From a virus: a DNA stretch of 64,000 nt. The notes under the pieces are model-generated. The model searched no databases. It was not told where the DNA came from and saw nothing but the letters and a program-made list of their open reading frames with translations. Below are positions 1,687-59,755 of this stretch, piece after piece (position 1 is the stretch's first letter; every line of letters starts with the position of its first letter). The translations under genes were made by a program, and so were the position numbers. The DNA lies in IMG/VR virus record IMGVR_UViG_3300045391_004297, positions 13,037 to 77,036 of that record. One strand, given 5' to 3'.

Positions 1687-1692
1687 AACTCC

Positions 1693-2130
1693 TGACTCTC
1701 CTAAACGTCCCGCCTTTTTGACTTTCCTGTCCGATTACTGGTCTACCGCTACGTCTGACTATGCTCCCCACAACGACGCCCGACGTACCTCCACCTGACA
1801 CAACCTGACTTTCCAAACCGCACCATCCGATTTCTGACTGGAGCCAACCTACACCTTCCAAATTACTGACCGAGCAAACCGCGACATGACGCGTCGTGGC
1901 TGACTTGCCATGTTCTCACCAGAACCCACCGTCACCGACGACCCACCCGAACTTCACTGGCCTTACAAACTGACCATCCTGTACGACTTCCAAACCAAAA
2001 ACCGACGGACCCGTACACCGCCACACTTTTCCGACATGACCACGAAACCCTAGACAAGGCGTGTCATGACGCACCTCCCGCCCCTCTCACGTTCGACAAA
2101 GCTCCCCACGCCACACACTCACCATCTCAG
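1693..2130 (+). repeat. periodic non-coding array 1 (GAC-anchored units, C every 5th nt)
   Basis: C at every 5th base 1759-1824 (14 in a row), 1870-1900 (7), 2006-2031 (6), 2050-2075 (6); recurrent TGAC; G-poor + strand. Confidence 0.8.
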
Positions 2131-2211
2131 GTGACAAGTGCTTGCGGCGCCGAGGCGTAAAGTCCAAGATCATTTCCTTCCCACCAACCACAATTTCCCA
2201 AAGGATGTGAC

Positions 2212-4386: not shown

Positions 4387-4635
4387 ATGGCGTTGTATTG
4401 GGAAGTAAGCTTCCGGGTTTCTGCTGGGCAGGATCGATTGACCCGGTACGGTGAGGTCAAGCAGGCCCATCCGGTCCCGCAAGAATGTGTTGATGATGAG
4501 GCTCAGGCACATCAACAAATTGAAGACCAGATCGCTACCGATGGTGAGCCGACCAAGCCATACGCGATTTACACCCAAGGCTGGCGCGATGGGGTAGCTT
4601 TCGGATTCAATGCTCGTATCGATCCCAACGCCTGA
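4387..4635 (+). CDS. hypothetical protein
   Basis: GAGGA RBS, 82 aa. Confidence 0.55.
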   Translation: MALYWEVSFRVSAGQDRLTRYGEVKQAHPVPQECVDDEAQAHQQIEDQIATDGEPTKPYAIYTQGWRDGVAFGFNARIDPNA

Positions 4636-4850
4636 CTGTCCTGCACTGCTGTTCCCTCGATCCAAACTGCCCGATCCTTGCGACTATCCTCCCCAATTTC
4701 CGTCCTCACTGACTAAACTCCGCCACCCGTCCCACTTCGATTGACTATCCTTGGCATACCCTTCCACATCAACAACTTGACTATCCTTCGCAGTCCCGCC
4801 CACCGCGACTATACTTTTCCCCCCGCATCTTTCCAACCCAACACGACACG
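4634..4850 (+). repeat. periodic non-coding array 2
   Basis: units start GACT at 4634,4682,4711,4743,4779,4807; 5-nt C runs 4713-4738, 4745-4770, 4781-4806, 4809-4849. Confidence 0.85.
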
Positions 4851-4868
4851 TTCACCAGGGAGGAAAAT

Positions 4869-6395
4869 ATGGCCGCGCATCAACCCACACCGGGCGATGA
4901 AGAAGACAGCGAGCCGGAAGGTACGCCCACCCCAGAGGGTATGGAGACGCAGGCTGTTCGGGCCAAAAAACTGGAGCGGTTGTACAACATTGACAAGTTT
5001 CGGTACTTTGACCTGATTGGTTATAAGCCGCACCCGAAGCAGTTGTTGTTTCACCGGTCCACGGCGCGCTTCAAGATCCCGATTTGTGGGCGTCGATTCG
5101 GCAAATCCCAGATGGCGGCCAAAGAGTACGAGCCGTTGCTGCTGATTCCGAATCGACGATATTGGATTGTCGGGCCGACCTATGACCTGGGCGAAAAAGA
5201 GTTCCGGATTATCTGGAACGACATGATCATCAAGCTTGGCCTTGGCAAGGAAAAAGATGTCAAGCGGTCATATGCTAAGAAGCAGGGCGATCTATCCATC
5301 GAGTTTCCCTGGCGTACTCGTATTGAGGTTCGTTCGGCAGATCGACCGGAGAATCTGGTCGGCGAGGGTCTTCATGGCGTCATCATGTCCGAGGCCGCTA
5401 AGCACACCCAGGACACTTGGGATCGCTTTATCCGGCCATCCCTCACTGACTACCGTGGTTCGGCGATTTTCCCAACGACACCGGAAGGCCAGAACTGGAT
5501 CTACAACCTGTGGAAGATGGGTCGTGATCCGCAAGAGCCGGAGTTTGAGTCCTGGCAGTTCCCGAGTTGGGAAAACCCGTACGTCTACCCCAAGGGAAAG
5601 CTCGACCCGGAAATCCTGCTGACCATGCGCACCACTCCGAAAGAAGAGTTCCTTCAGGAGTATGCGGCGGACTTCACCTCATTTGCCGGTAAGGTGTATG
5701 GCGAGTGGGACGAAGCGGTGCACGTGCAAGAGGTCAAGTACAATCCGCTGCTGCCCAACTACATCGCTTTTGACTGGGGTTGGGCTGCCCCGATGGCCGC
5801 TGTGGAGTTTCAAATTGACAGCTTTGGTCGGTGCCGGGTGTGGCGGGAGCACTACAAAACACACACGCGGTTGAAGGACTTTCTCAACGAATTGAAAAGC
5901 CGGCCACAGCCGCCGGATTACCATTTGAATTTGACCTTTGGCGACGCTGCCGATCCTGAGGCTGTCGTTTCTGTCTCGGAAGACTTCGCGCCCTGTGTGG
6001 GCGACCCTCGCTCCAAGACCGGCACCCAGGGTGGGTCGTTGGAGTCTGGTAAGCGCGAAGGTATCGAGCTGGTCAAGGGTCTGCTAATGTTGCAGCAGGT
6101 CGATGAGGATGAGTTCGGCACGCCGATCGAGATGCCCTGGTTGACCGTGGATCATTCGTGTTACAACCTAATCCGGGAGTTCAATAATTACCGCAACCAA
6201 GACCCGGTGCGTGGGCAAGACCCACGAGAGCAAACCTTCAAAAAGGATGATCACGCCCTGGATGCGCTGCGTTACGGGTTGATGCATGTGCTGAAGCTCG
6301 GCGCCACCATGAGTTTAGGTGATGTGATGGATCTTTCGGATATGCATGACACGCCAGCTTCTGGCTACTTCACCACGAACAAGACCTTTGCTTGA
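4869..6395 (+). CDS. terL: terminase large subunit
   Basis: CGRRFGKS Walker A, GVIMSE Walker B-like, RuvC-like nuclease with FDWG and KKDDHALDALRY. Confidence 0.95.
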   Translation: MAAHQPTPGDEEDSEPEGTPTPEGMETQAVRAKKLERLYNIDKFRYFDLIGYKPHPKQLLFHRSTARFKIPICGRRFGKSQMAAKEYEPLLLIPNRRYWIVGPTYDLGEKEFRIIWNDMIIKLGLGKEKDVKRSYAKKQGDLSIEFPWRTRIEVRSADRPENLVGEGLHGVIMSEAAKHTQDTWDRFIRPSLTDYRGSAIFPTTPEGQNWIYNLWKMGRDPQEPEFESWQFPSWENPYVYPKGKLDPEILLTMRTTPKEEFLQEYAADFTSFAGKVYGEWDEAVHVQEVKYNPLLPNYIAFDWGWAAPMAAVEFQIDSFGRCRVWREHYKTHTRLKDFLNELKSRPQPPDYHLNLTFGDAADPEAVVSVSEDFAPCVGDPRSKTGTQGGSLESGKREGIELVKGLLMLQQVDEDEFGTPIEMPWLTVDHSCYNLIREFNNYRNQDPVRGQDPREQTFKKDDHALDALRYGLMHVLKLGATMSLGDVMDLSDMHDTPASGYFTTNKTFA

Positions 6396-6580
6396 CTACC
6401 CCCTACACAACAACACCTTGCTTGACTATCCCACGCACGCCAGGACTGACTTCTCTGACTATCCGCGTCCCGCTCGCCCAGTTTCGCCGCTACTCTGCCG
6501 ACACACCTAGCCCACTGCATAACACACCAAAGCAACCGACTGCCCGCCTCCCTAGCCTCCCTAGCCTCCCTCGCCGTAAG
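6394..6580 (+). repeat. periodic non-coding array 3
   Basis: CTTGACTA at 6391 and 6421; C every 5th base 6396-6446 (11 in a row); GCCTCCCTA x~3 at the end. Confidence 0.8.
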
Positions 6581-6588
6581 GGAAAATA

Positions 6589-6771
6589 TTGACCAGCCGT
6601 GCCGAACATCTGGCAGCCGCGTGTGGGGTCCTGTTCACCACAGCGGTGCTGGCGTATGTCACGAAAAAGTATCTACTCGATGTGCACCCATTACCCAGCA
6701 AACTTGTGTATTTGGCAAAATCGTGCAGACACTGGGTTGACTTAGGGGGTGTCGAGTATGACGACGATTGA
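6589..6771 (+). CDS. small membrane protein
   Basis: TTG start after AAGGGA, one hydrophobic helix; overlaps portal start. Confidence 0.4.
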   Translation: MTSRAEHLAAACGVLFTTAVLAYVTKKYLLDVHPLPSKLVYLAKSCRHWVDLGGVEYDDD

Positions 6772-8446
6772 GACCAGCGACGGGAAAATTGCTGATCTTG
6801 AGGCGTATGCGGCGCAGCGGCAGATGTCGCTGCAAGAGGCAGTTTCGGGCAAGTACCAGATTGTGGCGGCCAACCACGATCCGGCCAACGGTTCGTACGT
6901 CATCTTGGCCGACCAGTCGCAGAACATTGAGCCCGGGTTTGCCACTCGGGAGCTTGGTTATTCTTCGCCGAGTCCGTGGACGGCTTGGACCCGTGATGAG
7001 CGGGTGCCGGAGCTTCGGGACAAGATTGGCTTGCGCACCTACTACGACATGAAGCGGGCCGATGGCACGATTCGTGGGGCGTTGCGCTTGCTCAAAACGC
7101 CGATTCAGGCGGCTCGGTGGTTTGTTGAGCCCTACGATGACACCGCGCTGAACAAGTCCATCGCCGAGTTTGTCGAAGAGAACCTGTTTTTGTACCTGTC
7201 TACGCCATGGTCGCAGGTGGTCGAAGACGCGCTGTTGATGTGCGACTACGGGTACATGGCCTTTGAGAAGGTGTGGACCGAGCCTGGCTCAGATGCCGAT
7301 AAGGTCAAAGACGGCAAGCTTCGGTTGGGTAAGTTGGCTGCTCGCCACCCGATGGACATTCGGGAGTGGGTGTGGGACGAAAACGGTGGCCCGGATGGGT
7401 TCATCATGGAAAATATTTCCATCCAAGGTACCGGGAACATGCCCGGTCCGGCGTTGTCGAGCTTCGGCATCCCGAACGCAGCGGTCACCGGCAACTACAA
7501 CCAGTTCAACAACCCGACGTTTGACCCCAAAACGGTGACGATTCCGATCACCAAGGCGATCGTGTTCACCTTGGAGAAGGAAGCCGGGGATCTGCGCGGG
7601 GTGTCGATTTTGCGCAGTGCCTACAAGCACTACTACTACAAAGACACCATGTACAAAATCGACGCGATCCAAAAAGAGCGCCACGGTATTGGCGTGCCGA
7701 TCATTAAGATGCCGTTGGGTTTTTCCACCGATGATCGGGCACTGGCCGAGAACTTGGGGCGTAACCTGCGCACCAACGAACGGGCGCACATTGTCGTGCC
7801 GATGAACTGGGAAGTGGCCTTTGCCAAGTTGGAAGGTCAGCCGGTGGATTGTTTGAAATCCATCGAACACCACGACATGAAGATCAAGTCCAACATTCTG
7901 GCCCCGTTCATGGATGAGTCCAACGTGAACCCGGATTCCCTGGACGTGTACTACAAGGCGACCCGCTACATTGCTAACACGTTGTGCGACACCGTCAACA
8001 AGTACCTGATTCCGCAGTTGGTCGGGATGAACTTCGCTCGGGGCAAAAACCCGTGTCTTCGGGTGCGTCGCATTGGTGAAGAAGAGTCGTTGCGCACGTT
8101 GTCGTTTGCTTTCCGCAACTTTGTTGGTGCCGGGGCTATTCGTCCGGATGACCCGTTGGAGAAGTTCCTGCGTTCTGAGCTGGACTTGCCGCCTGCTGAC
8201 CCGGACACGGCTCGGATGCCACTTCCACCCGGTGGTGGGCAAGACCCGAACGCCATGCCTGCCGATGGTGGGGACAGTCAGCACCAGCAAAATACCCAAA
8301 CCAAAAAGAAGCCCGAACCGCAAGTCGTTGTCGATGGCGTGCCACATGCTCCACAGCCGTCTCGGGTTGGTCCGCCTCGACAGGCGAATACGCCACCGGT
8401 ACACACCGGCAAGAGCAACTCAAGCCGCGATAACTCCGGAGGTTAA
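6749..8446 (+). CDS. portal protein (DUF935/Mu gp29-like)
   Basis: follows TerL; GYMAFEKVW, G.SILRSAY.HYYYK, ERHGIGVP motifs. Confidence 0.9.
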   Translation: MSSMTTIETSDGKIADLEAYAAQRQMSLQEAVSGKYQIVAANHDPANGSYVILADQSQNIEPGFATRELGYSSPSPWTAWTRDERVPELRDKIGLRTYYDMKRADGTIRGALRLLKTPIQAARWFVEPYDDTALNKSIAEFVEENLFLYLSTPWSQVVEDALLMCDYGYMAFEKVWTEPGSDADKVKDGKLRLGKLAARHPMDIREWVWDENGGPDGFIMENISIQGTGNMPGPALSSFGIPNAAVTGNYNQFNNPTFDPKTVTIPITKAIVFTLEKEAGDLRGVSILRSAYKHYYYKDTMYKIDAIQKERHGIGVPIIKMPLGFSTDDRALAENLGRNLRTNERAHIVVPMNWEVAFAKLEGQPVDCLKSIEHHDMKIKSNILAPFMDESNVNPDSLDVYYKATRYIANTLCDTVNKYLIPQLVGMNFARGKNPCLRVRRIGEEESLRTLSFAFRNFVGAGAIRPDDPLEKFLRSELDLPPADPDTARMPLPPGGGQDPNAMPADGGDSQHQQNTQTKKKPEPQVVVDGVPHAPQPSRVGPPRQANTPPVHTGKSNSSRDNSGG

Positions 8447-8687: not shown

Positions 8688-8860
8688 CGTGGCTACCCGC
8701 CCAATGGCACATCCCGAGCTGACTACCCGCCGTACGCCATCCCCAGCGAGCTGACATGCCCCGGCCAAACACGAGCATCCCAAGGCACGCTTACTGACTT
8801 AACACGGCACCACTACCCACCTCTTGTCCACAGACCCCCGCATAAAGCCCAACGCTAGAC
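8686..8860 (+). repeat. periodic non-coding array 4
   Basis: TGAC-anchored units with GAC at 8686,8721,8753,8796; C every 5th base 8798-8828 (7); internal repeats CTACCCGCC and CGAGCTGAC. Confidence 0.7.
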
Positions 8861-31998: not shown

Positions 31999-34356
31999 CT
32001 AGAGTTCGCCCAACCGTGAGGCGATGGTGGCATCTACTTCGAAGGGTACGTAGGTAGTAAATTCTTCGGCCGCCCTAACCATCTCGGTTCGCATAAGATC
32101 AATCGTTTCTTCCACGTGACGCTGATGACACTCAACGACAATAGCGTCGTGGATGGTGAGCCGCACCGTCGCAAGGCCCGCAAGCATTGGCTGCAACCGG
32201 ATAAGTGCCGTAAGACAAATGTCCGAGGCAATGGACTGCGGCAGAAACGACAGAGCTTCGTTAAGTACATCGGCCTGATTCTTATCGGTGATCAGCCAGA
32301 ACGAGCGCTTGCGGCCATACGGCGTTTTCAGATCGTGACCAGAGAGCACCTGGTGCTTGATGGAAGCTTGCCACTTCTTCACGTCTGGAATCAAGTTGTT
32401 GAAGTTTCGCATCAGGGTGGCAGCCTCCTCAACAGTGATGTTCACTGGAGGATTTTGCAGTTGCAACTCACGGGCAATGGAGGCCGCACCACGACCATAC
32501 GCGTTACCATAGAAGATGGACTTCATGGCGACCCGGTTTTCCTTGCCCCAGTTGCCTACCCCGAAGATGTCGTTGCACAGTTCGGAGAAGAGGTCCCGGT
32601 TTGGGTCTGCAAAGATTTCTCGAAGATATTCGTCTCTTGCAAGAGTTGTAATAACTCGGCCTTCTGCTTGTTTGTAATCAAGCTGGATGAAACGATGGTC
32701 TTCACTGAGGACAACAAACTGGTTTCGAATGGGTTTGTTACGAACAACGTTTTGGAGATTGGGTTCTCGGGAAGCGAGACGCCCGGAGGTAGTTCCGTGG
32801 AGAAGATACGTTGTATAGACTTTGCCCTCTGTTGTAACTCGTTTAGCAAGGCCCTTAACATAGGTACCATACAACTTCGCCTCTCTACGGTGCTCCAAGA
32901 GCAAATCAGTGAAGGTCAAAACCTCACCGGACAGTTGTGCTCGCAGTTCCTTGAGCAGGTCAGCGTTGGTCGAAGGTAGGGTAATCGCGTGCCGAGCGTA
33001 GTAGTTGGTGACCTGCTGTGGAGACCTCGGGTTCAGGTCATACCCAATCAGGTCGGCGATGCGCGTTTCGATGTCACCGATTTTTACTTCGTACTCATGC
33101 GCAAGCTTTTCGTTGTACTCCAGGTCAAAACCGATCCCGGCAAGTTCGAGCTCAATAAGTGTATTTGCGGCGCTAACGGTAAAGTCGTGCTTACGACGGT
33201 CATCGTCAGAAAACTCGCCACTAAACAACTCGTATAGGGCCCACGTACAAACCACATCGTAAGCATTGTAGCGGTACAGTATTTGTCGGGGAATGTTTGC
33301 ATATGAACCGCCACGCGGAACATATTGTTTGATCTCGGATTCATAGTCAGGTGCGCCTAGTCGCTCAATTGAGAGAACCTTGAGGCCCATATGGCCAGGA
33401 CGTTCGTCAAGGGCGTAGGCGGCGAGCATGGTATCAAACCAAAGCTGTTGCTTACCCGCCACAGTGCGAAGTCCGGCAAGGTCAAATTTGCCATTGTGAG
33501 CAATGATGCGAGTTGATGAAAGAAGGTGCCGGAGCGCACTTCGAACTGATTCGTCGGCAAGTGCATTCTCCCCAATGACCACAGCGCGGTTGGGTGCAAA
33601 TGCGATTCCCACACAGAGCAGATCGTACTCACTTGGGTGGACGAAAGCTTCATCCTTTTCAACACCGCACTCAATGTCAATGACGATACGGTCAAATCGA
33701 GTGCGCAGTTCGTTGAGGACTCCGATGGCAGCACCAGGATCGTCAAATACTCGGTAGATCGGTTCATGCCAATCATGGATTTTTTCGTCCTTGATCTTGC
33801 CGAAGTCGAAGACGAGGTCCGGGAAGCTGTCCGGTGAGCGCAGCGAATAAGCCGGGTGCCACGTGGGTATCACCCGCACGTTTTTATTGCGTACGTACGG
33901 CTTGGGTGGGCCAACGCGCATGCGTCGCATCGAGCCCCGCTCGTCGAGCACGCTGTGGGCGGCCACCTTGCCAACGGCCACGATCGTGTCGGCATTCGAC
34001 GCGTCGATCTCCGCGTGCAGTCGTGGTGCGCAGGCGTCTCGGGCAGCTTTGGGTGGATCAGCATCGGCTTCTGGCCGACAAAGCACTGAGTTGGTGATCA
34101 TGATGTTGTCGCGAAACAACCCATGATGGTTGAGCACTTGGTTGAGCAAATCTCCGGATGGTCCGGTGAAGGGAATGCCCCGAACGGATTCGTAGGCACC
34201 AGGAGCTTCACCTAGAACGATAATGCCGGAGGACGGGTGTGGGTTGAGCGTGGGTACGAAGCCGCCTTCATTGCGGTATGGACACTCTTCGCACTTGGCC
34301 AATGGGTGCTTGCGCTTGAATACCTCGTCGCCGTTTTCACTGTCTGGCGCAGACAC
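31999..34356 (-). CDS. DNA polymerase A with N-terminal family-4 UDG-like domain
   Basis: CEECP, GEAPG, HPAY (UDG4); DIE, AHNGKFD (3'-5' exo); DYKQAE, RVAMKSIFYG, HDAIV (pol motifs A/B/C). Confidence 0.95.
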   Translation of the reverse strand: MSAPDSENGDEVFKRKHPLAKCEECPYRNEGGFVPTLNPHPSSGIIVLGEAPGAYESVRGIPFTGPSGDLLNQVLNHHGLFRDNIMITNSVLCRPEADADPPKAARDACAPRLHAEIDASNADTIVAVGKVAAHSVLDERGSMRRMRVGPPKPYVRNKNVRVIPTWHPAYSLRSPDSFPDLVFDFGKIKDEKIHDWHEPIYRVFDDPGAAIGVLNELRTRFDRIVIDIECGVEKDEAFVHPSEYDLLCVGIAFAPNRAVVIGENALADESVRSALRHLLSSTRIIAHNGKFDLAGLRTVAGKQQLWFDTMLAAYALDERPGHMGLKVLSIERLGAPDYESEIKQYVPRGGSYANIPRQILYRYNAYDVVCTWALYELFSGEFSDDDRRKHDFTVSAANTLIELELAGIGFDLEYNEKLAHEYEVKIGDIETRIADLIGYDLNPRSPQQVTNYYARHAITLPSTNADLLKELRAQLSGEVLTFTDLLLEHRREAKLYGTYVKGLAKRVTTEGKVYTTYLLHGTTSGRLASREPNLQNVVRNKPIRNQFVVLSEDHRFIQLDYKQAEGRVITTLARDEYLREIFADPNRDLFSELCNDIFGVGNWGKENRVAMKSIFYGNAYGRGAASIARELQLQNPPVNITVEEAATLMRNFNNLIPDVKKWQASIKHQVLSGHDLKTPYGRKRSFWLITDKNQADVLNEALSFLPQSIASDICLTALIRLQPMLAGLATVRLTIHDAIVVECHQRHVEETIDLMRTEMVRAAEEFTTYVPFEVDATIASRLGEL

Positions 34357-35761: not shown

Positions 35762-37990
35762 CTACGCTACACCCACTCGACGATATTTGCGTTGACCATG
35801 TACATCCATTTGATACACCATATTCCGTTGTGTCATTGTACCGAAGATGAGATCGGCACGCTTATAATCGAGTTGGAATACCCGCATAAGCTCAGCCCGT
35901 GGCACGCCGGAAAGATCATTGTTTCCGATGTAATCGTAGATCTTCATGATCAGTCGTTCGTCATAGGTTTTGCCGACGCCGTTAATGATTTCACTGGCGT
36001 ACTCGCGCCACTTACGGCAGTAGTAAATGGCGTGCAGAATATCCAACTCTTCCACGATGATGCCCTCTTCCCGTTGTCGGGACGCAGCAAGCAACAACGC
36101 TGCCTTGAGGGTGGAGACAGTCAACCGAACGTAGACTGGCATCAGAAAGCCAAGCCCGGTGCTCTCGGCGGTCTCCATCATTTGTCGTTCAAAAACGTTG
36201 TACCGAGCCCAAGCCTCGGGGGTCAGGCTAGCTTCGAATTCGGTGGCGACCGTGCCCACAGTCTGGCCACCTTTTTTGATTTCCGTTTTGTTGTGGTAAT
36301 GCAGGAACATGTCCATGAGTTCATTTTTCAACAGCTCTCTGGCGTCAAGGTTAATGTCTACAGATGGTGGTCGAGTAAGACGGATATCGTTGATGGTGGC
36401 GTCACCACTGATGAAGATGAACCGTGGCACGAAGCCACTCATCACATGCTCTTCAGTGAGCAACTGTTGAATTTTGTCTTTGATTCCGGCGGCGAAGATA
36501 ATGAACCTCGGATCGCGTACCTCGATAACTTCCTTCCTGAGCACTCGCCGAATACTATCCCCATCGTAGAGTTTGGTCAGTTGCTCTACGAATCCGGCCA
36601 TGTAGTCTTTGTGGGCAATAGCCTCCAACAGACCAGTGAACTCATCTTTAAGAAAGACTGAGGGCTCGCCCGGACGATCACTCAGGGCCGAAAGGATACC
36701 TTCCACCGAACCATCGGTGGCGAGATCAATTTCTGGGTTGATCTCGCGGGCCAGGTGCATCGCGGTACGCTGCGCAGTTGATTTTCGAGTCAACGTCGTG
36801 CCTGCTAGCAGCATGAACCACAAGTTCGGGAAGACCTTCTCGTGGGAGGTAGAGATGTACATGCTGCCTGCGAGTAACGACGATAGTATCACGAACGCCC
36901 CGGCTTGGTGGTACTGGGTAGGCGCGTCCGTCATTCCTTTAGCCCAGTTAATATAACGCTCTACGAATGTTTCCCGGCTTTGCACTTTGTGCACTTCTTG
37001 CTCAGAAAGCAACTCTGGTATCACGGTTTGGGTGCTGGCGATGAGTTGCATTTTTTCGATGTGCTTAACGAAAGCGCGGTTCACATCTTGCCACAGCGCC
37101 AGCTCATCTTTGCCGTCACGCTTGAACTTATTGCACGCCGAGGAATTCGCCACGACGAAGGTTTCTTCTTTGGTCAGGCCAGCCTCGATGCAGTACTGCA
37201 TGAGTGACCACAGCGAGCCCGACCATTTACTTTCCAACGCATCACTATCGTCGGGGGGCTCGACGTAGTAGACGTTGTAGAACTTGTCGGACAGCGACTC
37301 ACCATAGCGGTCAATAATTTCCTGGGCTGACTCACTTGGCAAGGTGTCCGGCAGTTCATTGGTGCGCTCCAAGAACTTCAGCGCTTTGACCGCTGGATAA
37401 ATCTTGAAGTCAGCCGGTCGGTACACCCCGGGGGCACTGGAGATAACCGTGACAACCGGTGATTCACTGGCCTGTCCGTACTTGTAGTTCGGGGTGTACG
37501 GAATGCGCATCAAGTGCCCGGCGTCGTGACACATGTCCGCGCCTTGTTCCTTGTGCGCGTAGGCAATGCGAGTGTTGATGTCCTCGGCGACCGTGGGGGA
37601 AATCGGATCTTGCATAACCCAGTACGCTTGAAACCGCCCAGGAGAAGTCTGGGTCAAGACCGAAGGTGGCAGCTTCAAGTACTTCGGATCGCACTCATCC
37701 AGATCCGCATGGGCGAAGTTTGAGGTGATGATGTTTGAGCGAAGTCGGCGGTTTGGTTCTTTGTACAACGCGGTACCGAACCAGAAGTGTGCTTGGCGCT
37801 GTTGACTTTGTTGCTCGATGACGTCGAGCATGCCGTCCAAGTCACTGGGGTACAGGTACCACGTGTGGTGCACCTGACTACCATCGATGACGTCTTTGAT
37901 GGCCATACAAAGAAAGCCTTCATTGACCCCAAACAGGTATTTGAAAAATGTTCGGCGCTGCTCCCGCGTCGTGGCGAGCAGATCGGTCAT
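35762..37990 (-). CDS. primase-helicase (RepB-like primase + DUF3987-like domain)
   Basis: HADLDE, QTSPGRFQAYW; AGTTLTRKST P-loop variant, GSVEGIL, DEF; annotated 38056 start lies inside a terminator so a downstream start is preferred. Confidence 0.85.
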   Translation of the reverse strand: MTDLLATTREQRRTFFKYLFGVNEGFLCMAIKDVIDGSQVHHTWYLYPSDLDGMLDVIEQQSQQRQAHFWFGTALYKEPNRRLRSNIITSNFAHADLDECDPKYLKLPPSVLTQTSPGRFQAYWVMQDPISPTVAEDINTRIAYAHKEQGADMCHDAGHLMRIPYTPNYKYGQASESPVVTVISSAPGVYRPADFKIYPAVKALKFLERTNELPDTLPSESAQEIIDRYGESLSDKFYNVYYVEPPDDSDALESKWSGSLWSLMQYCIEAGLTKEETFVVANSSACNKFKRDGKDELALWQDVNRAFVKHIEKMQLIASTQTVIPELLSEQEVHKVQSRETFVERYINWAKGMTDAPTQYHQAGAFVILSSLLAGSMYISTSHEKVFPNLWFMLLAGTTLTRKSTAQRTAMHLAREINPEIDLATDGSVEGILSALSDRPGEPSVFLKDEFTGLLEAIAHKDYMAGFVEQLTKLYDGDSIRRVLRKEVIEVRDPRFIIFAAGIKDKIQQLLTEEHVMSGFVPRFIFISGDATINDIRLTRPPSVDINLDARELLKNELMDMFLHYHNKTEIKKGGQTVGTVATEFEASLTPEAWARYNVFERQMMETAESTGLGFLMPVYVRLTVSTLKAALLLAASRQREEGIIVEELDILHAIYYCRKWREYASEIINGVGKTYDERLIMKIYDYIGNNDLSGVPRAELMRVFQLDYKRADLIFGTMTQRNMVYQMDVHGQRKYRRVGVA

Positions 37991-38030
37991 CGCCGAATTC
38001 GCCAAATCACACCCCCCTGTTTGAGCGAAC

Positions 38031-38090
38031 AAAAAACCCGACCCTGGACCTGTCAATTTGATCCGAAGATCGCCCAGGGGCGGGTTCTTT
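38031..38090 (-). terminator. intrinsic terminator after SSB
   Basis: AACCCG-CCCTGG...CCAGGG-CGGGTT stem followed by TTTT on minus strand. Confidence 0.7.
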
Positions 38091-38104
38091 GTTCTCCGTA
38101 AAAA

Positions 38105-38578
38105 TTACGGAAGCATGGAGTTCGAGCTGCTCTTCACGGTGGTGCCATCCGCCTTGCGGTAGCCGGTCACCTTGAATCGATCCGGAAGCTCACGCTTGGC
38201 CTTCGTGTCGTAGCCCGCCAGCAACTTACGACCAATAACCACGAGTGACTTGCCCAGCAGTTCCTCATCGTCGGGCAGCTCCATCTCACCAGGCGTCACT
38301 TCGTAGCCCAACGCCTTGAGCAGCATAGCCAACGAGGAAAGCGTACCTTCCTTATCGGTTTCGAAGAGCATCACATTGGAGAAGACACTGTTGCCAGCGT
38401 ACTTACCATCTTGCACCGTGAAGCGAAGATTCCAGAACGGCTTGCCCTCGTTCACGCCGCCCGGCTTCACCGTGGCGGTCTTCACATCGGTGATGTTACA
38501 CAGGTAGGAGCCACTCGGAATAATTTCCCGAGCAGTCGATTCCGCTTCACTTTGGGTGAAGTTAACCTTGAGACCCAT
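38105..38578 (-). CDS. ssDNA-binding protein (DUF669-like)
   Basis: IP.G.Y...ITDV, RFTV.DGKYAG..VF; adjacent to Sak4-like ATPase. Confidence 0.75.
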   Translation of the reverse strand: MGLKVNFTQSEAESTAREIIPSGSYLCNITDVKTATVKPGGVNEGKPFWNLRFTVQDGKYAGNSVFSNVMLFETDKEGTLSSLAMLLKALGYEVTPGEMELPDDEELLGKSLVVIGRKLLAGYDTKAKRELPDRFKVTGYRKADGTTVKSSSNSMLP

Positions 38579-48506: not shown

Positions 48507-49394
48507 CTAAACGGCTTTCCAGTCGGTGACTTCGTACTTGCCGTAACCCTGCGAGCGCGAAGCGCCGATACCCTGCTGCTCCCCGGTGAGCCACAGCAGG
48601 GCCCACTCTTTGTCGGAGAAGTCGTAGTCGGTGGTCACGTGGAATTCCAGCACCGCGTTTTCCACGTACTCTTCGTACTGGATGCCAGAACCCCGGAAGG
48701 TGTGCACGAAGCGCTGGTTGATCCCAGTGGGCTCACCCTTGACCGGCTCGTTGAGGTAGATGCGCGTCTCGGGCACGAACACGTGCTCAGCGAAGAACGA
48801 CAATGTGCCCTTGCGGGTCGGACCCCAACGCTCCTTGGGCCAACGCACATTCGCCGCTTCCTTGATGGCGGCCTTGGCCTGGCGACCCTCGATGTACAGG
48901 CCGTTTTTGGGATCACGCTTGAACCCGTTGAGGTGCTTGTTCATGTTGACGATCTTGGTGGCTTCGTTGATGTCCACGCCCTTGTCGAGCATGACCTCAG
49001 CGACCATTTCGCGGATGACGTCTTCCTTGTCCACGCCAAGCTTGGTCTTGAGCCAACCTTCGGCAACCTTCGGGTCAGACGGGGTACCACCGGCGATGAC
49101 CGGGACCGTCAACTGGATGCGGAAGTTGTACGGGTACGCGGTCGGGCGGTACTGTTCGAAGACAGATGCCACAGTGGGCTGTCCTTTCTGGATACGGTCA
49201 ATCAGTTCTTGGTTTGGTGCTGGTGGATTTGGATCGACCCGATTGAACCAAACCTCCTCAACAACAGGTTTCGTCGTTGTTTTGCGTTTTGGCTTCGGCT
49301 TTTCCTCGATCTCAGGTTCCACTGTTTCGAGTTCGGGATCGACAGCTCGGCTGGACCGATTGCTGCGCGTCCTGGCGGTGACGAATTCCACCAT
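48507..49394 (-). CDS. stand-alone Cas7/RAMP-like protein
   Basis: LYIEGRQAKAAIKEAA (RAMP IPG..KG..R equivalent), thumb-like GINQRFVHTFRGSGIQYEE, C-terminal Gly loop GIGASRSQGYGKYEV. Confidence 0.8.
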   Translation of the reverse strand: MVEFVTARTRSNRSSRAVDPELETVEPEIEEKPKPKRKTTTKPVVEEVWFNRVDPNPPAPNQELIDRIQKGQPTVASVFEQYRPTAYPYNFRIQLTVPVIAGGTPSDPKVAEGWLKTKLGVDKEDVIREMVAEVMLDKGVDINEATKIVNMNKHLNGFKRDPKNGLYIEGRQAKAAIKEAANVRWPKERWGPTRKGTLSFFAEHVFVPETRIYLNEPVKGEPTGINQRFVHTFRGSGIQYEEYVENAVLEFHVTTDYDFSDKEWALLWLTGEQQGIGASRSQGYGKYEVTDWKAV

Positions 49395-49408: not shown

Positions 49409-50077
49409 CTATTGGTTTGTCAGACGTTCATCCGGCTCGGGAAAAGCGTGGTGCCGGTCGTCTTGGCGGACCCGAGCTGAACGAGTTTTGGGCGATGTGC
49501 GCTTCGCCTCTTTTGTTTCCTTTGCCAGCGAAGCATCCGAGATTGACATCCACATCTGGGCAAGACGCTGCTCATCGTAAATGTCAGCAACCGTCTTGGT
49601 CGGATCGTCGTCCAACCGTCGGGCCAGCACATTCAAAAACGCCGCTTGCATGGCGTTTTGATCGGCTCGCTTCTGGTAGGAATCTGCCACAAAGTGCAGA
49701 TCTTTCGCGGTCATTTGAGACAGTCGCTTGCGCAGCCCGTCAGCGGTCACGTGCACCATAGCGAAGAATCCGCCGAGTGCTTCGTTGTCGCCTTCGCTGA
49801 ACTTTTTGGCTGCCTCGTTGAAAGCCATCCGATTTGCGTTGCGCCGCACATGCGTGCGCAGTGAGGCGTCTCGGCGATTGATCGCTGTTCGCACAACTTC
49901 TTTGGCTTGGAACAAAAGCCAACCGATGAGCAGGTCTTTGTCAGTTTCTGTCAGTTTGCGCACGATTTCAGCGGCGATGTTGGCTGAGTTGTAAGCACCT
50001 TCAGCCGTGTATTCATCGATCATTCGCCGCATTTCGAGGGCGTAGTTGCGATAGTAGATAGGTTCGTCTGCGGCCAT
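49409..50077 (-). CDS. helical hypothetical protein upstream of Cas7-like gene
   Basis: 222 aa, AAAGG RBS; 14-nt gap to next gene. Confidence 0.7.
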   Translation of the reverse strand: MAADEPIYYRNYALEMRRMIDEYTAEGAYNSANIAAEIVRKLTETDKDLLIGWLLFQAKEVVRTAINRRDASLRTHVRRNANRMAFNEAAKKFSEGDNEALGGFFAMVHVTADGLRKRLSQMTAKDLHFVADSYQKRADQNAMQAAFLNVLARRLDDDPTKTVADIYDEQRLAQMWMSISDASLAKETKEAKRTSPKTRSARVRQDDRHHAFPEPDERLTNQ

Positions 50078-50102: not shown

Positions 50103-50129
50103 TTACCCAGGCAAGCCCAACCAGACCGG
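50103..50129 (-). repeat. GGY-NN pentamer run in operon leader
   Basis: minus strand CC GGT CT GGT TG GGC TT GCC TG GGT AA. Confidence 0.6.
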
Positions 50130-51267: not shown

Positions 51268-51441
51268 ATGTTGCAATCATGACAAATGCGATGAACAACG
51301 TGAGTGCGGCCAGAAAGATCCCAGCAATGGCTATGAGCATCGGTTCCACTTTGGACGGTCGGCGATGCGACCGAATCATGTGTGGCCGGTAATTGTCATG
51401 ACTCACGACTTGTCCGCCTCACTTACGTGCTTGGTAGTACC

Positions 51442-51954
51442 TCAACCAACCTTTTTCCAAGTTCCGCACCGCTTCGTCTCAAAATCCTGACCCCTCTTCA
51501 GGGTCACTCGCAGATTCCCGCCACCAAAGTGGTTGTTGACAATCGATCCCAGATCCTGATTGGTACCTGACTTGTAGATTGCCCAATAACAGTTACTCGC
51601 AGCGCCAATGGTTTGATAGTTGCCGACCGGGAAGTCTTCGCCAACCGTCCACGTTCCATCGACAATGGTTGGTGGCGGCGGCGGTGGTGGTGGGGGAGGC
51701 GAGATGCTTTTTGTCGGAGACGGTGAAGGTGAAGGACTCGGTGATTGCGTTTGTAGTGGCGCCGCTGCCGCATGGGTAGCAGTAGGAGTCGGTGTTGGCT
51801 TGGCACTTGGTGCCATAAGGGCAACAACTGAGACAATGCCACAAAGTACCAGTAGTCCAACAGCAGCAATAATAACTAGAACCAACCACATGGGGAGCTT
51901 CTTCTTGGGTGCTGGCATACCTCCAAGATGTTGGTTGTCATATGAATAACTCAT
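51442..51954 (-). CDS. membrane-anchored Pro-rich protein
   Basis: TM, PT/PS linker, DGTW.VGED...G.Y..CYW domain. Confidence 0.75.
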   Translation of the reverse strand: MSYSYDNQHLGGMPAPKKKLPMWLVLVIIAAVGLLVLCGIVSVVALMAPSAKPTPTPTATHAAAAPLQTQSPSPSPSPSPTKSISPPPPPPPPPPTIVDGTWTVGEDFPVGNYQTIGAASNCYWAIYKSGTNQDLGSIVNNHFGGGNLRVTLKRGQDFETKRCGTWKKVG

Positions 51955-59086: not shown

Positions 59087-59139
59087 GACGTAAGTTCCTC
59101 TCTCGGAAACCTATGTCATGGCAATCACCTCTTTCGTCA

Positions 59140-59465
59140 CGTCGGGTAAGGCGGGATTCGTGTCTCTGGCTGGGTCGGAAAGTCAAAAAGGCAGTCGCCG
59201 TTGTCCGCTTTTGTTCGACTGCAAAAGAGCCGTCATGGTTTTGGGACGACTCGAATAAATCAAGATTCAGTAAACCATTCAGTTCTCAAGAAACCGCGAC
59301 TTTCGGTAAGAGATGGTCCCTGCATCGCGCGGGGAGTCCCTGACCCGTCGTGCTAGTACCCACCCTAGCTCGGCTGACGAAGGTCGTCAACCCTGTTGAT
59401 CGAGTGGATCGATCGTGTCTGGTATGTCCGTTTTGTCTGAGTCATCGGGGGTGGGCACAGTCAAT
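59140..59465 (-). repeat. non-coding block related to periodic arrays (array 5)
   Basis: minus strand C-rich TGACT units; 16-nt GCCTTTTTGACTTTCC identical to 1712-1727; periodicity weaker. Confidence 0.55.
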
Positions 59466-59467
59466 AT

Positions 59468-59755
59468 TTACTTGCAGTGCTCGTCGTTAGGCACAACAAA
59501 TACCGATGACGATGTGGTCACGTCAGTGTTAGCACCACGCGATGTTACGTATACGCCATTGTGACCGTAACAGGTGAACTCCACGTTTCGGAATCCGTTT
59601 GACATCCGAATAACTTGCGTGCGGGTGCCATCCACGACACTAGAGCTGGTCGGCTCAGGTGCGTCTGTATGAGTCTGCCCGCATGCGGCGATTGACGCAA
59701 TTGCGCACAGCCCAACGATGGCCGCCGCAATGCGGCCCTTGTATTGATAAATCAT
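59468..59755 (-). CDS. lipoprotein
   Basis: signal peptide with IAAC lipobox. Confidence 0.75.
   Translation of the reverse strand: MIYQYKGRIAAAIVGLCAIASIAACGQTHTDAPEPTSSSVVDGTRTQVIRMSNGFRNVEFTCYGHNGVYVTSRGANTDVTTSSSVFVVPNDEHCK

What the first reader, a model, noticed from the sequence alone, without database searches (positions are those of the whole stretch)
6394..6580. Array 3 between terL and portal
It starts at the terL stop. CTTGACTA recurs at an exact 30-nt spacing, with C in 5-nt phase for 11 steps (6396-6446). It ends in a GCCTCCCTA triplication. A ~190-nt insertion in the normally tight terL-portal junction implies selection to keep it.
Basis: seen in the sequence. Interest (0 to 1): 0.75.

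Follow-up and report, generated by a model that had tools for sequence, protein, structure and literature searches.

The report
Orphan VIPR guide-RNA-type pentamer array
The odd 195-base gap after this soil phage's terminase gene is a five-base-periodic repeat array of the kind that goes with VIPR systems (a CRISPR-related phage system first described in 2026); this phage scatters a dozen such arrays between its genes, on the opposite strand polarity to the studied examples.

Summary
Window 6392-6590 is non-coding, C-rich and G-poor, with six YYGACW heads and a C at every fifth base for 13 steps (6386-6446; P=0.005 against local shuffles).

It is one of at least 11 such tracts in this 92-kb phage. 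All of them are C-rich on the strand of the flanking genes.

Relatives with 64-80% identical terL lack both the array and the motif.

A pattern-only scan and a protein-anchored scan of IMG/VR both tie this array design to one gene pair:
- a small Cas7-like RAMP (here window 48507-49394, minus strand);
- a helical partner protein (49409-50077, minus strand).

In 69 loci the motif density reaches 9.9 per kb just upstream of the RAMP gene, and unit lengths are quantised as 3+5n.

Earlier notes of this scan, made on other DNA as well as this genome, named the system VIPR. I checked the 2026 preprints. My own fold search had already matched the reference Vipr protein, X1U2U4.

So Array 3 is an orphan vrRNA-type array: a variant of a known kind. 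It differs from the studied examples in strand polarity, GAC punctuation and dispersal through the genome. Expression, strand and targets remain untested.

The parts
4869..6395 (+). terL (large terminase, 508 aa). Its stop codon lies inside the first array head.
   Evidence: ORF list. tblastn matches to annotated terminase large subunits at 35-37% identity.
6392..6590 (+). Array 3: a non-coding pentamer-phased tract with YYGACW heads at 6392, 6422, 6446, 6455, 6498 and 6536. It is 43% C and 15% G.
   Evidence: Predicted RNA is no more structured than its shuffles: MFE -23.5 against a shuffle mean of -28.5, z=+1.49. No Rfam family matches.
6382..6446 (+). Perfect lattice of 13 pentads, each ending in C: AGACC TTTGC TTGAC TACCC CCTAC ACAAC AACAC CTTGC TTGAC TATCC CACGC ACGCC AGGAC.
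   Evidence: P=0.005 for a run of 11 or more.
6446..6454 (+). A 9-nt head copy (CTGACTTCT) that is absent in a variant strain, i.e. an indel polymorphism within the array.
   Evidence: read laying: run X6 has 9 letters left out at 6446.
6546..6572 (+). GCCTCCCTA x3 tandem triplication; the third copy matches 8 of 9.
   Evidence: the repeat finder family D2.
6589..6771 (+). Small membrane-protein ORF (TTG start, preceded by AAGGGAAAATA). In relatives its counterpart overlaps the terL stop directly.
   Evidence: Translation. Small transmembrane ORFs sit right after terL in L002-L006.
6758..8446 (+). Portal gene, with its likely ATG at 6758 after TAGGGGG.
   Evidence: ORF list, sequence, synteny with relatives.
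1687..2210 (+). Array 1, of the same design. It holds the longest C lattice in the genome (14 steps, 1759-1824).
4633..4868 (+). Array 2, of the same design, directly upstream of terL. The upstream gene's stop codon lies inside its first head.
8688..8860 (+). Array 4, of the same design.
48507..49394 (-). vipr-like gene: a 295-aa minimal Cas7-like RAMP. Its core is residues ~76-295, with the C-terminal G-loop GIGASRSQGYGKYEV.
   Evidence: The AFDB hit X1U2U4 (E 2e-8, TM by hit 0.70) is the reference Vipr protein named in 10.64898/2026.10.21.760802.
49409..50077 (-). vap-like accessory gene: a 222-aa helical protein that is conserved upstream of vipr in 48 of 70 loci.
   Evidence: It matches phrog_4604, a family of unknown function.

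Best explanation
Array 3 is a VIPR-type pentamer-repeat array, that is, a vrRNA-like guide-RNA locus. It sits as an orphan copy about 42 kb from the phage's own vipr-vap gene pair.

Shown here:
- The tract has a 5-nt register with GAC-marked unit heads.
- The same design recurs in at least 11 intergenic tracts of this phage.
- Across viral contigs the design is tightly linked, on the same strand, to a minimal Cas7-like RAMP. That protein matches the reference Vipr fold, and it comes with a helical accessory gene.

Inferred from the 2026 VIPR preprints:
- One Vipr protomer binds each 5-nt repeat. It buries the fixed bases and presents the two variable bases of each pentad.
- Those variable bases pair with double-stranded DNA, skipping one base between pairs.
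- The resulting filament represses genes of competing phages or satellites.

Inferred for this clade:
- The array is read through as part of the terL-portal transcript, giving a C-rich, unstructured RNA.
- The GAC heads mark the unit boundaries.
For: Link between the array design and one protein:
- tblastn of every ORF of the phage against five array-bearing contigs, found by DNA pattern alone, gave one protein shared with four of them. It lies next to their arrays. A profile search found the fifth, also adjacent.
- In 69 loci anchored on that protein, YYGACWNNCC occurs 800 times on the gene strand and 139 times on the other. Density is 9.9 per kb in the 250 nt upstream, against about 0.3 per kb background.
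- 404 motifs lie between the accessory gene and the RAMP gene, 48 before the accessory gene and 83 after the RAMP gene.
- The array-less terL relatives, including one complete 81-kb genome, lack the gene.

Format of the arrays:
- Unit lengths peak at 28-29, 33-34, 38-39, 43, 48 and 53, i.e. 3+5n.
- C frequency at lattice positions is 73-91%. The first two positions of each pentad are unconstrained. This is a fixed trinucleotide plus a variable dinucleotide, the VIPR format.

Fold of the protein:
- Foldseek against the PDB returns only Cas7/Csm3/Cmr4 at the top (E 1e-6 to 1e-4).
- VIA-align gives Z 8-9.7, all Cas7 or gRAMP.
- The AFDB search returns X1U2U4, the reference Vipr, with TM 0.70 normalised by the hit (its identity is stated in 10.64898/2026.10.21.760802).

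Published description of VIPR:
- Minimal vipr+vap loci, 5-nt repeats, the alternative repeat forms NNNGG/NNNNG, staggered arrays and orphan vrRNAs (10.64898/2026.04.26.720920.720927, 2026.10.15.759431).

For sense-strand transcription:
- Arrays fill the vap-vipr gap, ending a median of 22 nt before vipr.
- In this phage their polarity flips with gene direction in both genome arms.
- The Array 3 RNA is predicted to be unstructured.
Against: - The canonical vrRNA repeat is GGY/NN and G-rich. Here the vipr-strand repeat is C-rich, and the opposite strand reads GGR/NN (110 runs) far more often than GGY/NN (21 runs).
- In this phage only one C per pentad is well kept: 34% C at the position before it, against 69% in the family as a whole. 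The arrays may therefore be decayed.
- Units here are short, about 5-6 pentads. Studied vrRNAs have 9-16 repeats plus a conserved structured 3' tail. I found no conserved tail.
- No array lies next to vipr in this phage.
- No RNA data exist for it.
- No natural target was identified.
Confidence: 0.55

Rival explanations
1. Same system, opposite strand. The functional vrRNAs are the G-rich transcripts, (GGNNN)n or (GNNNN)n. For Array 3 these would be made antisense to terL-portal and bound by Vipr through G-specific pockets, as in the solved SUSP1 complex.
For: - The published alternative vrRNA repeats NNNGG and NNNNG equal the reverse complement of these arrays.
- Structural work shows G1 and G2 read by conserved RAMP elements.
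- A distant family member, L123, carries GGC/NN arrays that are G-rich on the vipr strand.
Against: - It would need an outward-facing promoter at each of 11 or more tracts. In canonical loci that promoter would lie inside vipr, because arrays end a median of 22 nt before the gene.
- Strict co-orientation of the C-rich strand with flanking genes in both arms is unexplained by antisense units.
- No promoter-like site was found on the minus strand beside Array 3.
Confidence: 0.2
2. The dispersed arrays are not guides. They could be decayed or selfishly spreading copies of the vipr-linked array. Or they could be cis elements or decoys on the phage's own mRNAs, loading sites for Vipr that tune translation, stability or polarity at gene junctions.
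For: - Only one C per pentad is kept here.
- Indels arise by slippage: a 9-nt head polymorphism and a 9-nt triplication.
- Arrays turn over far faster than flanking genes. Where vipr is 88-92% identical, arrays align over 6-35% of their length.
- Array heads overlap upstream stop codons, and each array is followed by a fresh ribosome-binding site.
- A near relative (vipr 82% identical) keeps a 4-unit array between vap and vipr. That array is lost here.
Against: - Arrays make up about 6% of a phage genome and are stable across soil samples from 2019 to 2025.
- Fast turnover is equally expected of guides in an arms race.
- No cis role for vrRNAs has been reported.
Confidence: 0.18
3. The pattern comes from a translated ORF (6392-6592, 66 aa, rich in Pro, Thr and Leu).
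For: The frame is open through the array. Five of the six heads share one frame.
Against: - Strong 5-nt periodicity and no 3-nt periodicity.
- In the other arrays the heads fall in all three frames.
- TTG start with no ribosome-binding site.
- C-rich, G-poor sequence is depleted of stop codons by composition alone.
- The same design is non-coding in 69 other loci.
Confidence: 0.02
4. These are elements independent of Vipr: Rho-loading (rut) tracts, or arrays of asymmetric repressor sites like mycobacteriophage stoperators.
For: - A C>G unstructured tract is what Rho prefers (own knowledge).
- CTTGACWNNCC resembles the reverse complement of the L5 stoperator as I recall it. Stoperators are oriented with transcription (PMC9283540).
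Against: - Neither explains the 5-nt lattice, the 3+5n unit lengths, or the exclusive linkage to the RAMP gene.
- Stoperators occur singly, not in 30-nt arrays.
Confidence: 0.04

Closest known systems
VIPR systems (Vipr + Vap + vrRNA; type II of Escherichia phage SUSP1 and a P. fulva prophage). bioRxiv 10.64898/2026.04.26.720920 and 10.64898/2026.04.26.720927.
   Same: - A phage-borne minimal RAMP with one accessory gene.
- Flanking non-CRISPR arrays with a 5-nt period, each pentad a fixed trinucleotide plus a variable dinucleotide.
- The fold matches the reference Vipr protein X1U2U4.
- Fast-evolving arrays.
   Different: - The repeat is C-rich on the vipr strand. The opposite strand reads GGR/NN, not GGY/NN.
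- Short units of 5-10 pentads are punctuated by GAC (unit lengths 3+5n).
- No conserved structured 3' tail was seen.
- In this phage the arrays are degenerate (NNNNC) and are not adjacent to vipr.
Orphan or solo vrRNAs of satellites and SUSP1-family phages (bioRxiv 10.64898/2026.10.15.759431).
   Same: vrRNA-type repeats are encoded away from any vipr gene.
   Different: - Those are single loci in elements that lack vipr. They are used to redirect, or to target, another element's VIPR.
- Here at least 11 arrays (about 100 units, roughly 6% of the genome) sit between genes of a phage that has its own vipr, including inside the structural operon.
Non-canonical period-5 arrays (GAC/NN, CAC/NN and others) next to Vipr-like folds (bioRxiv 10.64898/2026.10.21.760802).
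   Same: Period-5 arrays whose fixed trinucleotide ends in C, including GAC, lie beside a Vipr-like protein.
   Different: - There the motif repeats about 10 times as the pentad itself.
- Here GAC appears once per unit, either as a 3-nt punctuation or in phase as a YYGAC pentad, among NNNCC or NNNNC pentads.
Class 1 CRISPR: Cas7 (Csm3/Cmr4) backbone filament on crRNA.
   Same: - RAMP fold with a G-rich loop.
- One protomer per short RNA segment.
- An array lies next to the gene.
   Different: - Period 5, not 6.
- No 23-50 nt direct repeats, no foreign-derived spacers, and no cas1, cas2, cas5, cas6 or cas10.
Stoperators of cluster A mycobacteriophages (PMC9283540).
   Same: A short asymmetric motif in intergenic gaps, oriented with transcription; some sequence resemblance (TTGAC...CC).
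   Different: - Stoperators are single 13-bp DNA sites bound by a monomeric repressor.
- They have no pentad lattice and no RAMP partner.

Membership tests
VIPR system (protein part, Vipr) | Minimal single-RRM RAMP fold with a glycine-rich loop, structurally like the reported Vipr protein. | tested here: met
   - AF2 model: pLDDT 70, pTM 0.61.
- Foldseek against the PDB: top hits all Cas7/Csm3, E 1e-6 to 1e-4.
- VIA-align: Z 8-9.7.
- AFDB: X1U2U4, the reference Vipr per 10.64898/2026.10.21.760802, at E 2e-8 and TM by hit 0.70.
- Invariant GxGA(S/T)RSQG(Y/F)G loop.
VIPR system (locus) | Minimal, mostly viral locus: vipr plus one accessory gene (vap), with no other cas genes and no CRISPR array. 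| tested here: met
   - A helical ~190-aa gene lies upstream of the RAMP gene in 48 of 70 loci, including this phage.
- All loci come from IMG/VR.
- No Pfam, NCBIfam or PADLOC cas family hit beyond weak G-loop matches.
VIPR system (RNA part, vrRNA array) | Tandem 5-nt repeats, each a fixed trinucleotide plus a variable dinucleotide, flanking vipr. | tested here: met
   - Family-wide lattice C at 73-91%, first two pentad positions unconstrained, unit lengths 3+5n.
- 30-fold enrichment upstream of the gene.
- In this phage the arrays are dispersed rather than adjacent.
- Array 3 has a 13-pentad lattice.
VIPR system (RNA part, vrRNA array) | Repeat consensus GGY/NN (YNNGG) on the transcribed strand. 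| tested here: not met
   - The vipr strand carries NNNCC runs in 44 loci and GGNNN runs in only 6.
- The opposite strand reads GGR/NN (110 runs) more than GGY/NN (21 runs).
- The published alternatives NNNGG and NNNNG fit only if the G-rich strand is the RNA, which is untested.
VIPR system (RNA part, vrRNA array) | 9-16 repeats followed by a conserved structured 3' tail. | tested here: inconclusive
   - Array 3 has 13 in-phase pentads, but they span two GAC heads.
- No conserved tail is visible by eye at the array ends.
- The RNA is predicted to be unstructured.
- Staggered, tail-less arrays are reported for other VIPR types.
VIPR system (function) | vrRNA is expressed and bound by Vipr; its NN bases match natural DNA targets under the 1-nt-skip rule. 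| tested here: inconclusive
   - No RNA run holds this phage.
- Decoded guides of 9-14 pentads scored no better than shuffled guides in 1.35 Mb of relatives and other VIPR contigs.
- An exact 20-base gapped pattern from Array 3 had no IMG/VR match.
CRISPR array | Direct repeats of about 23-50 nt alternating with unique spacers, together with adaptation genes. | tested here: not met
   - Only a ~10-nt head recurs.
- The unit bodies are compositionally constrained, with a C every 5 nt.
- The long ORFs I scanned against Pfam gave no cas family.

The most novel reading that the evidence does not exclude
In this clade the guide RNAs are the C-rich sense strand. That would mean a Vipr lineage whose base-reading pockets have switched from G to C.

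The arrays would then be embedded in ordinary operon transcripts, here between terL and portal. A single phage would carry about 100 guide units as part of its mRNAs. These could also act in cis on the expression of the flanking structural genes.
Probability: 0.3. Interest if true: 0.75.

Novelty: new variant of a known kind. Interest (0 to 1): 0.5.

Why it matters
VIPR is a months-old discovery. It is proposed as the ancestor of CRISPR effectors and as a new logic for programmable DNA recognition.

This phage and its clade test how far that logic stretches in three ways:
- An apparently inverted base polarity, C-rich on the coding strand.
- A GAC-punctuated, length-quantised unit format.
- A guide repertoire scattered through intercistronic gaps of early and structural operons, rather than clustered beside vipr.

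If the C-rich strand is the RNA, the protein's repeat-reading specificity is evolvable. That would matter for engineering.

If the arrays act in cis, that would be a new role for the system.

A cultured phage, Microcystis phage Mae-JY09 (PP395641), carries the same clade's module with an adjacent array. This makes the question testable at the bench.

Tried and rejected
Searches and predictions that gave nothing:
- Complex prediction of the Vipr-like core with the Vap-like protein: no verdict (score 0.28, mark 0.32).
- No RNA holder listed for this phage among public runs.
- Rfam at a permissive threshold: nothing on the arrays.
- Fold searches for the accessory protein: no informative match. 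Foldseek E was never below 0.67, and VIA-align Z was at most 5.6 on single helices. The PDB profile search returned only designed or helical proteins.
- Promoter and terminator scan around arrays 1-4: nothing on or beside Array 3 beyond chance.
- Target search with the NN code at skips of 0-3 against relatives G001-G004, five other VIPR contigs and 69 loci: best hits were within the shuffled-guide range.
- Exact gapped pattern from Array 3 in IMG/VR: no hit.
- megablast of the junction against isolated phages: no match.

Ideas considered and dropped:
- Sigma-70 promoter arrays: there is no -10 element at 17 nt.
- T7/SP6-like promoter cores: GACT/GACA is present, but there is no TATA part and no single-subunit RNA polymerase among the large ORFs.
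- Primase or Chi-like sites.
- Two-tetrad G-quadruplexes on the template strand: in this phage only one C per pentad is kept.
- Rho rut sites and stoperators: see the rival explanations.

The regions 59100-59480 and 51380-51860 (minus strand) are not arrays. The first has only two heads. The second is a Pro-rich coding linker.
Full report
**Setting.** The window is bases 13037-77036 of a 92,387-bp IMG/VR virus record with a 69-bp terminal overlap. GC content is 54%. Near-identical copies occur in several soil metagenomes dated 2019-2025.

terL is 4869-6395 (35-37% identity to annotated terminases of Arthrobacter and Microbacterium phages). The portal gene starts at about 6758.

**The observation.** Every descriptive claim holds.
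- The terL stop lies inside the first CTTGACTA.
- The octamer recurs 30 nt later.
- C falls on every fifth base from 6386 to 6446, which is 13 pentads.
- GCCTCCCTA is triplicated at 6546-6572.
- The tract is 43% C and 15% G.
- A run of 11 or more phased C's arises in 0.5% of local shuffles.

**It is one of many.** GC-skew scanning found at least 11 C-rich, G-poor tracts.
- Four lie on the plus strand among plus-strand genes: window 1687-2210, 4633-4868, 6392-6590 and 8688-8860.
- Seven lie on the minus strand among minus-strand genes, outside the window.
- The skew-defined tracts I pooled total about 6.2 kb. That figure is an upper bound, because part of the first tract encodes the Pro-rich tail of a 638-aa ORF.
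- All of them carry heads of the form C-Y-G-A-C-W-N-N-C-C, spaced about 28-33 nt apart and in all three reading frames.
- Pooled C autocorrelation has z=8.7 at lag 5, 5.8 at lag 10 and about 4 at lags 25-30. It is negative at lags 2, 3, 6 and 7.
- Anchored on GAC, C frequency is 88, 73, 63, 59 and 51% at +5 to +25, against a 40% background.
- Head pairs 26-40 nt apart number 37, against 0.78 in shuffled genomes.
- The period of 5 and the absence of a period of 3 rule out coding as the source.
- Array 3 RNA is predicted to be less structured than its shuffles (z=+1.49).
- No Rfam family matches.

**Relatives.** Five contigs with 64-80% identical terL have no array after terL.
- They carry instead a small membrane-protein gene overlapping the terL stop, plus one or two more small genes. 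The terL-portal distance in them is 320-740 nt.
- Window ORF 6589-6771 is the counterpart of that membrane protein. Here it is displaced by the array and given its own ribosome-binding site.
- These relatives, including a complete 81-kb genome, lack the motif genome-wide.

**The partner protein, found without prior knowledge.**
- A degenerate three-head pattern scan of IMG/VR returned five contigs with true arrays of this design, plus some coding-repeat false positives.
- tblastn of all ORFs of this phage against those contigs gave one protein shared with four of them: window 48507-49394, minus strand. In each contig it abuts the array.
- A profile search found a divergent copy beside the fifth contig's array, and none in the array-less terL relatives.
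- The family has more than 1,560 members and no Pfam or PHROG family.
- A protein-anchored scan gave 69 viral loci.
- In those loci the motif occurs 800 times on the gene strand and 139 on the other. Density peaks at 9.9 per kb in the 250 nt upstream and decays to about 0.3 per kb.
- A second conserved gene, helical and about 190 aa, lies upstream in 48 of 70 loci. The array sits between the two genes: 404 motifs between, 48 before and 83 after.
- In this phage the two genes abut (49409-50077 and 48507-49394) with no array between them.
- A near relative, with the RAMP 82% identical, keeps a four-unit array in that gap.

**Array format across the family.**
- Head-to-head distances are quantised at 28-29, 33-34, 38-39, 43, 48 and 53, i.e. 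3+5n.
- Each pentad has two unconstrained positions followed by (C)CC. Lattice C is at 73-91%, and the base before it is C in 55-69% of cases.
- The array is therefore a run of NNNCC pentads with a GAC inserted after a CC.
- In this phage only the last C of each pentad is well kept. Units are mostly 29-30 nt, so GAC often sits in phase as a YYGAC pentad, as in Array 3.
- Arrays turn over much faster than their flanking genes. Where the RAMP genes are 88-92% identical, arrays align over only 6-35% of their length.
- Within this phage's population, one soil strain lacks a 9-nt head in Array 3. The same strain shows CTGAC changed to CCGAC in Array 2, a change that stays within the motif.

**What the protein is.**
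- The AF2 model (pLDDT 70) matches only Cas7-family RAMPs at the top of three independent searches. Foldseek against the PDB gives E 1e-6 to 1e-4 for type VII Cas7, Csm3 and Cmr4. VIA-align gives Z 8-9.7. AFDB clusters give type III RAMPs.
- Sequence profiles give only weak G-loop hits to Csm3, Cas6, Cas5 and Cmr6.
- The accessory protein folds confidently (pLDDT 89) as a helical protein with no informative match.

**Identification with VIPR.** After reaching this point I consulted the scan's earlier notes. They name VIPR systems, so I read the sources.
- 10.64898/2026.04.26.720920 describes Vipr as a minimal, mostly phage-encoded RAMP. It comes with one accessory gene (vap) and vrRNAs made of 9-16 YNNGG repeats plus a 3' tail. 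The NN bases pair with double-stranded DNA, skipping one base. The complex represses competing phages and satellites. Seven types exist, with alternative repeats NNNGG, YNNNG and NNNNG, and with staggered and ribozyme-spaced arrays.
- 10.64898/2026.04.26.720927 shows one protomer per repeat in a helical filament, with G1 and G2 read by the RRM, G-loop and thumb.
- 10.64898/2026.10.15.759431 reports solo and orphan vrRNAs.
- 10.64898/2026.10.21.760802 reports 99 clusters of period-5 arrays, 21 of them non-canonical (GAC/NN, CAC/NN and others). It names UniProt X1U2U4 as the reference Vipr protein.
- X1U2U4 is rank 3 in my own AFDB search, with the highest hit-normalised TM of any row, 0.70.
- The protein, the locus and the period-5 array criteria are therefore met. 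The canonical GGY/NN consensus is not.

**The open point: which strand.**
- On the vipr strand the family's arrays are NNNCC: 198 runs in 44 loci, against 16 GGNNN runs in 6 loci. The opposite strand reads GGR/NN (110 runs) more than GGY/NN (21 runs).
- One distant member, L123, has GGC/NN arrays that are G-rich on the vipr strand, as in the studied type.

For sense, C-rich RNA:
- Arrays fill the vap-vipr gap, starting a median of 46 nt after vap and ending a median of 22 nt before vipr. This leaves no room for an inward-facing promoter.
- In this phage the C-rich strand follows gene direction in both arms.
- Array heads overlap upstream stop codons.

For antisense, G-rich RNA:
- The published alternative repeats NNNGG and NNNNG fit that reading.
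- The solved complex reads G bases specifically.

I weigh this at roughly 55:20, and leave the remainder to decayed or cis-acting arrays.

**Targets.** Decoding the first two bases of each pentad with skips of 0-3 gave no hit above shuffled guides in 1.35 Mb of relatives and other VIPR contigs. An exact 20-base gapped pattern from Array 3 has no IMG/VR match. These searches are small, or require exact matches, and so settle nothing.

**Verdict.** Array 3 is real and non-coding, and it is a lineage-specific replacement or insertion. It belongs to the period-5 array class of VIPR systems, so the kind is known from 2026 preprints. The scan has also met this kind on other genomes.

It is a variant rather than a plain member because of three features: strand polarity, GAC punctuation, and dispersal through intercistronic gaps, including terL-portal.

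Expression, the transcribed strand, Vipr binding and targets are all inferred, not shown.

Microcystis phage Mae-JY09 (PP395641) has the RAMP gene at 37713-38459 and an adjacent array with 33-, 48-, 61-, 33-, 33- and 44-nt units. It offers a cultured system for the decisive tests.

Noticed in passing
window 50103-50127, minus strand (leader of the vap-vipr pair): GGTCT GGTTG GGCTT GCCTG GGTAA: five pentads, four of them in the canonical GGY/NN form, on the vipr sense strand about 25-50 nt before the vap start and just after a GACCATATGGTC palindrome. It could be a short canonical-type vrRNA or chance. My regex for four or more perfect GGYNN pentads does not call it.
   Followed up: partly
window ~296-377 (within the AT-rich stretch 200-500, GC about 0.40): A long hairpin or palindrome draws weak miRNA-precursor matches on both strands (best E 2e-4, far below the gathering score). 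It lies at the divergence point of the two gene arms, so it may be an origin or a regulatory region.
   Followed up: no
L002:4720-4760 (closest terL relative, upstream of the homologue of window gene 2212-2493): A (CCCAAT)x4-5 hexanucleotide repeat in a short C-rich gap, at the position where this phage has Array 1. L002:950-1200 holds a different ~22-30 nt repeat with a TGTCC(G)ATTTGCCC core.
   Followed up: no
L140:2854-4494 (contig carrying the 82%-identical vipr): A TROVE/Ro60-family protein (PF05731 with vWA_Ro60) is encoded 5.5 kb upstream of the vap-vipr pair in the near relative.
   Followed up: no
window 31999-34356, minus strand: A family A DNA polymerase with an N-terminal uracil-DNA-glycosylase-superfamily domain fused ahead of the 3'-5' exonuclease domain (Pfam E 2e-27 for UDG).
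   Followed up: no
L007:535-2451, minus strand (genome 535-2451, outside the window): A 638-aa ORF with no Pfam hit. Its C-terminal ~210 residues are encoded by a C-rich, Pro/Ser/Thr-rich tract that runs straight into a motif array. Part of the first skewed tract is therefore coding.
   Followed up: partly
L128 (Microcystis phage Mae-JY09 PP395641, 33725-38976): This end of a phage isolated on Microcystis aeruginosa has 73% GC, which is unexpectedly high for such a phage. It carries the vap-like gene, the vipr-like gene and the array right up to the record's end.
   Followed up: partly
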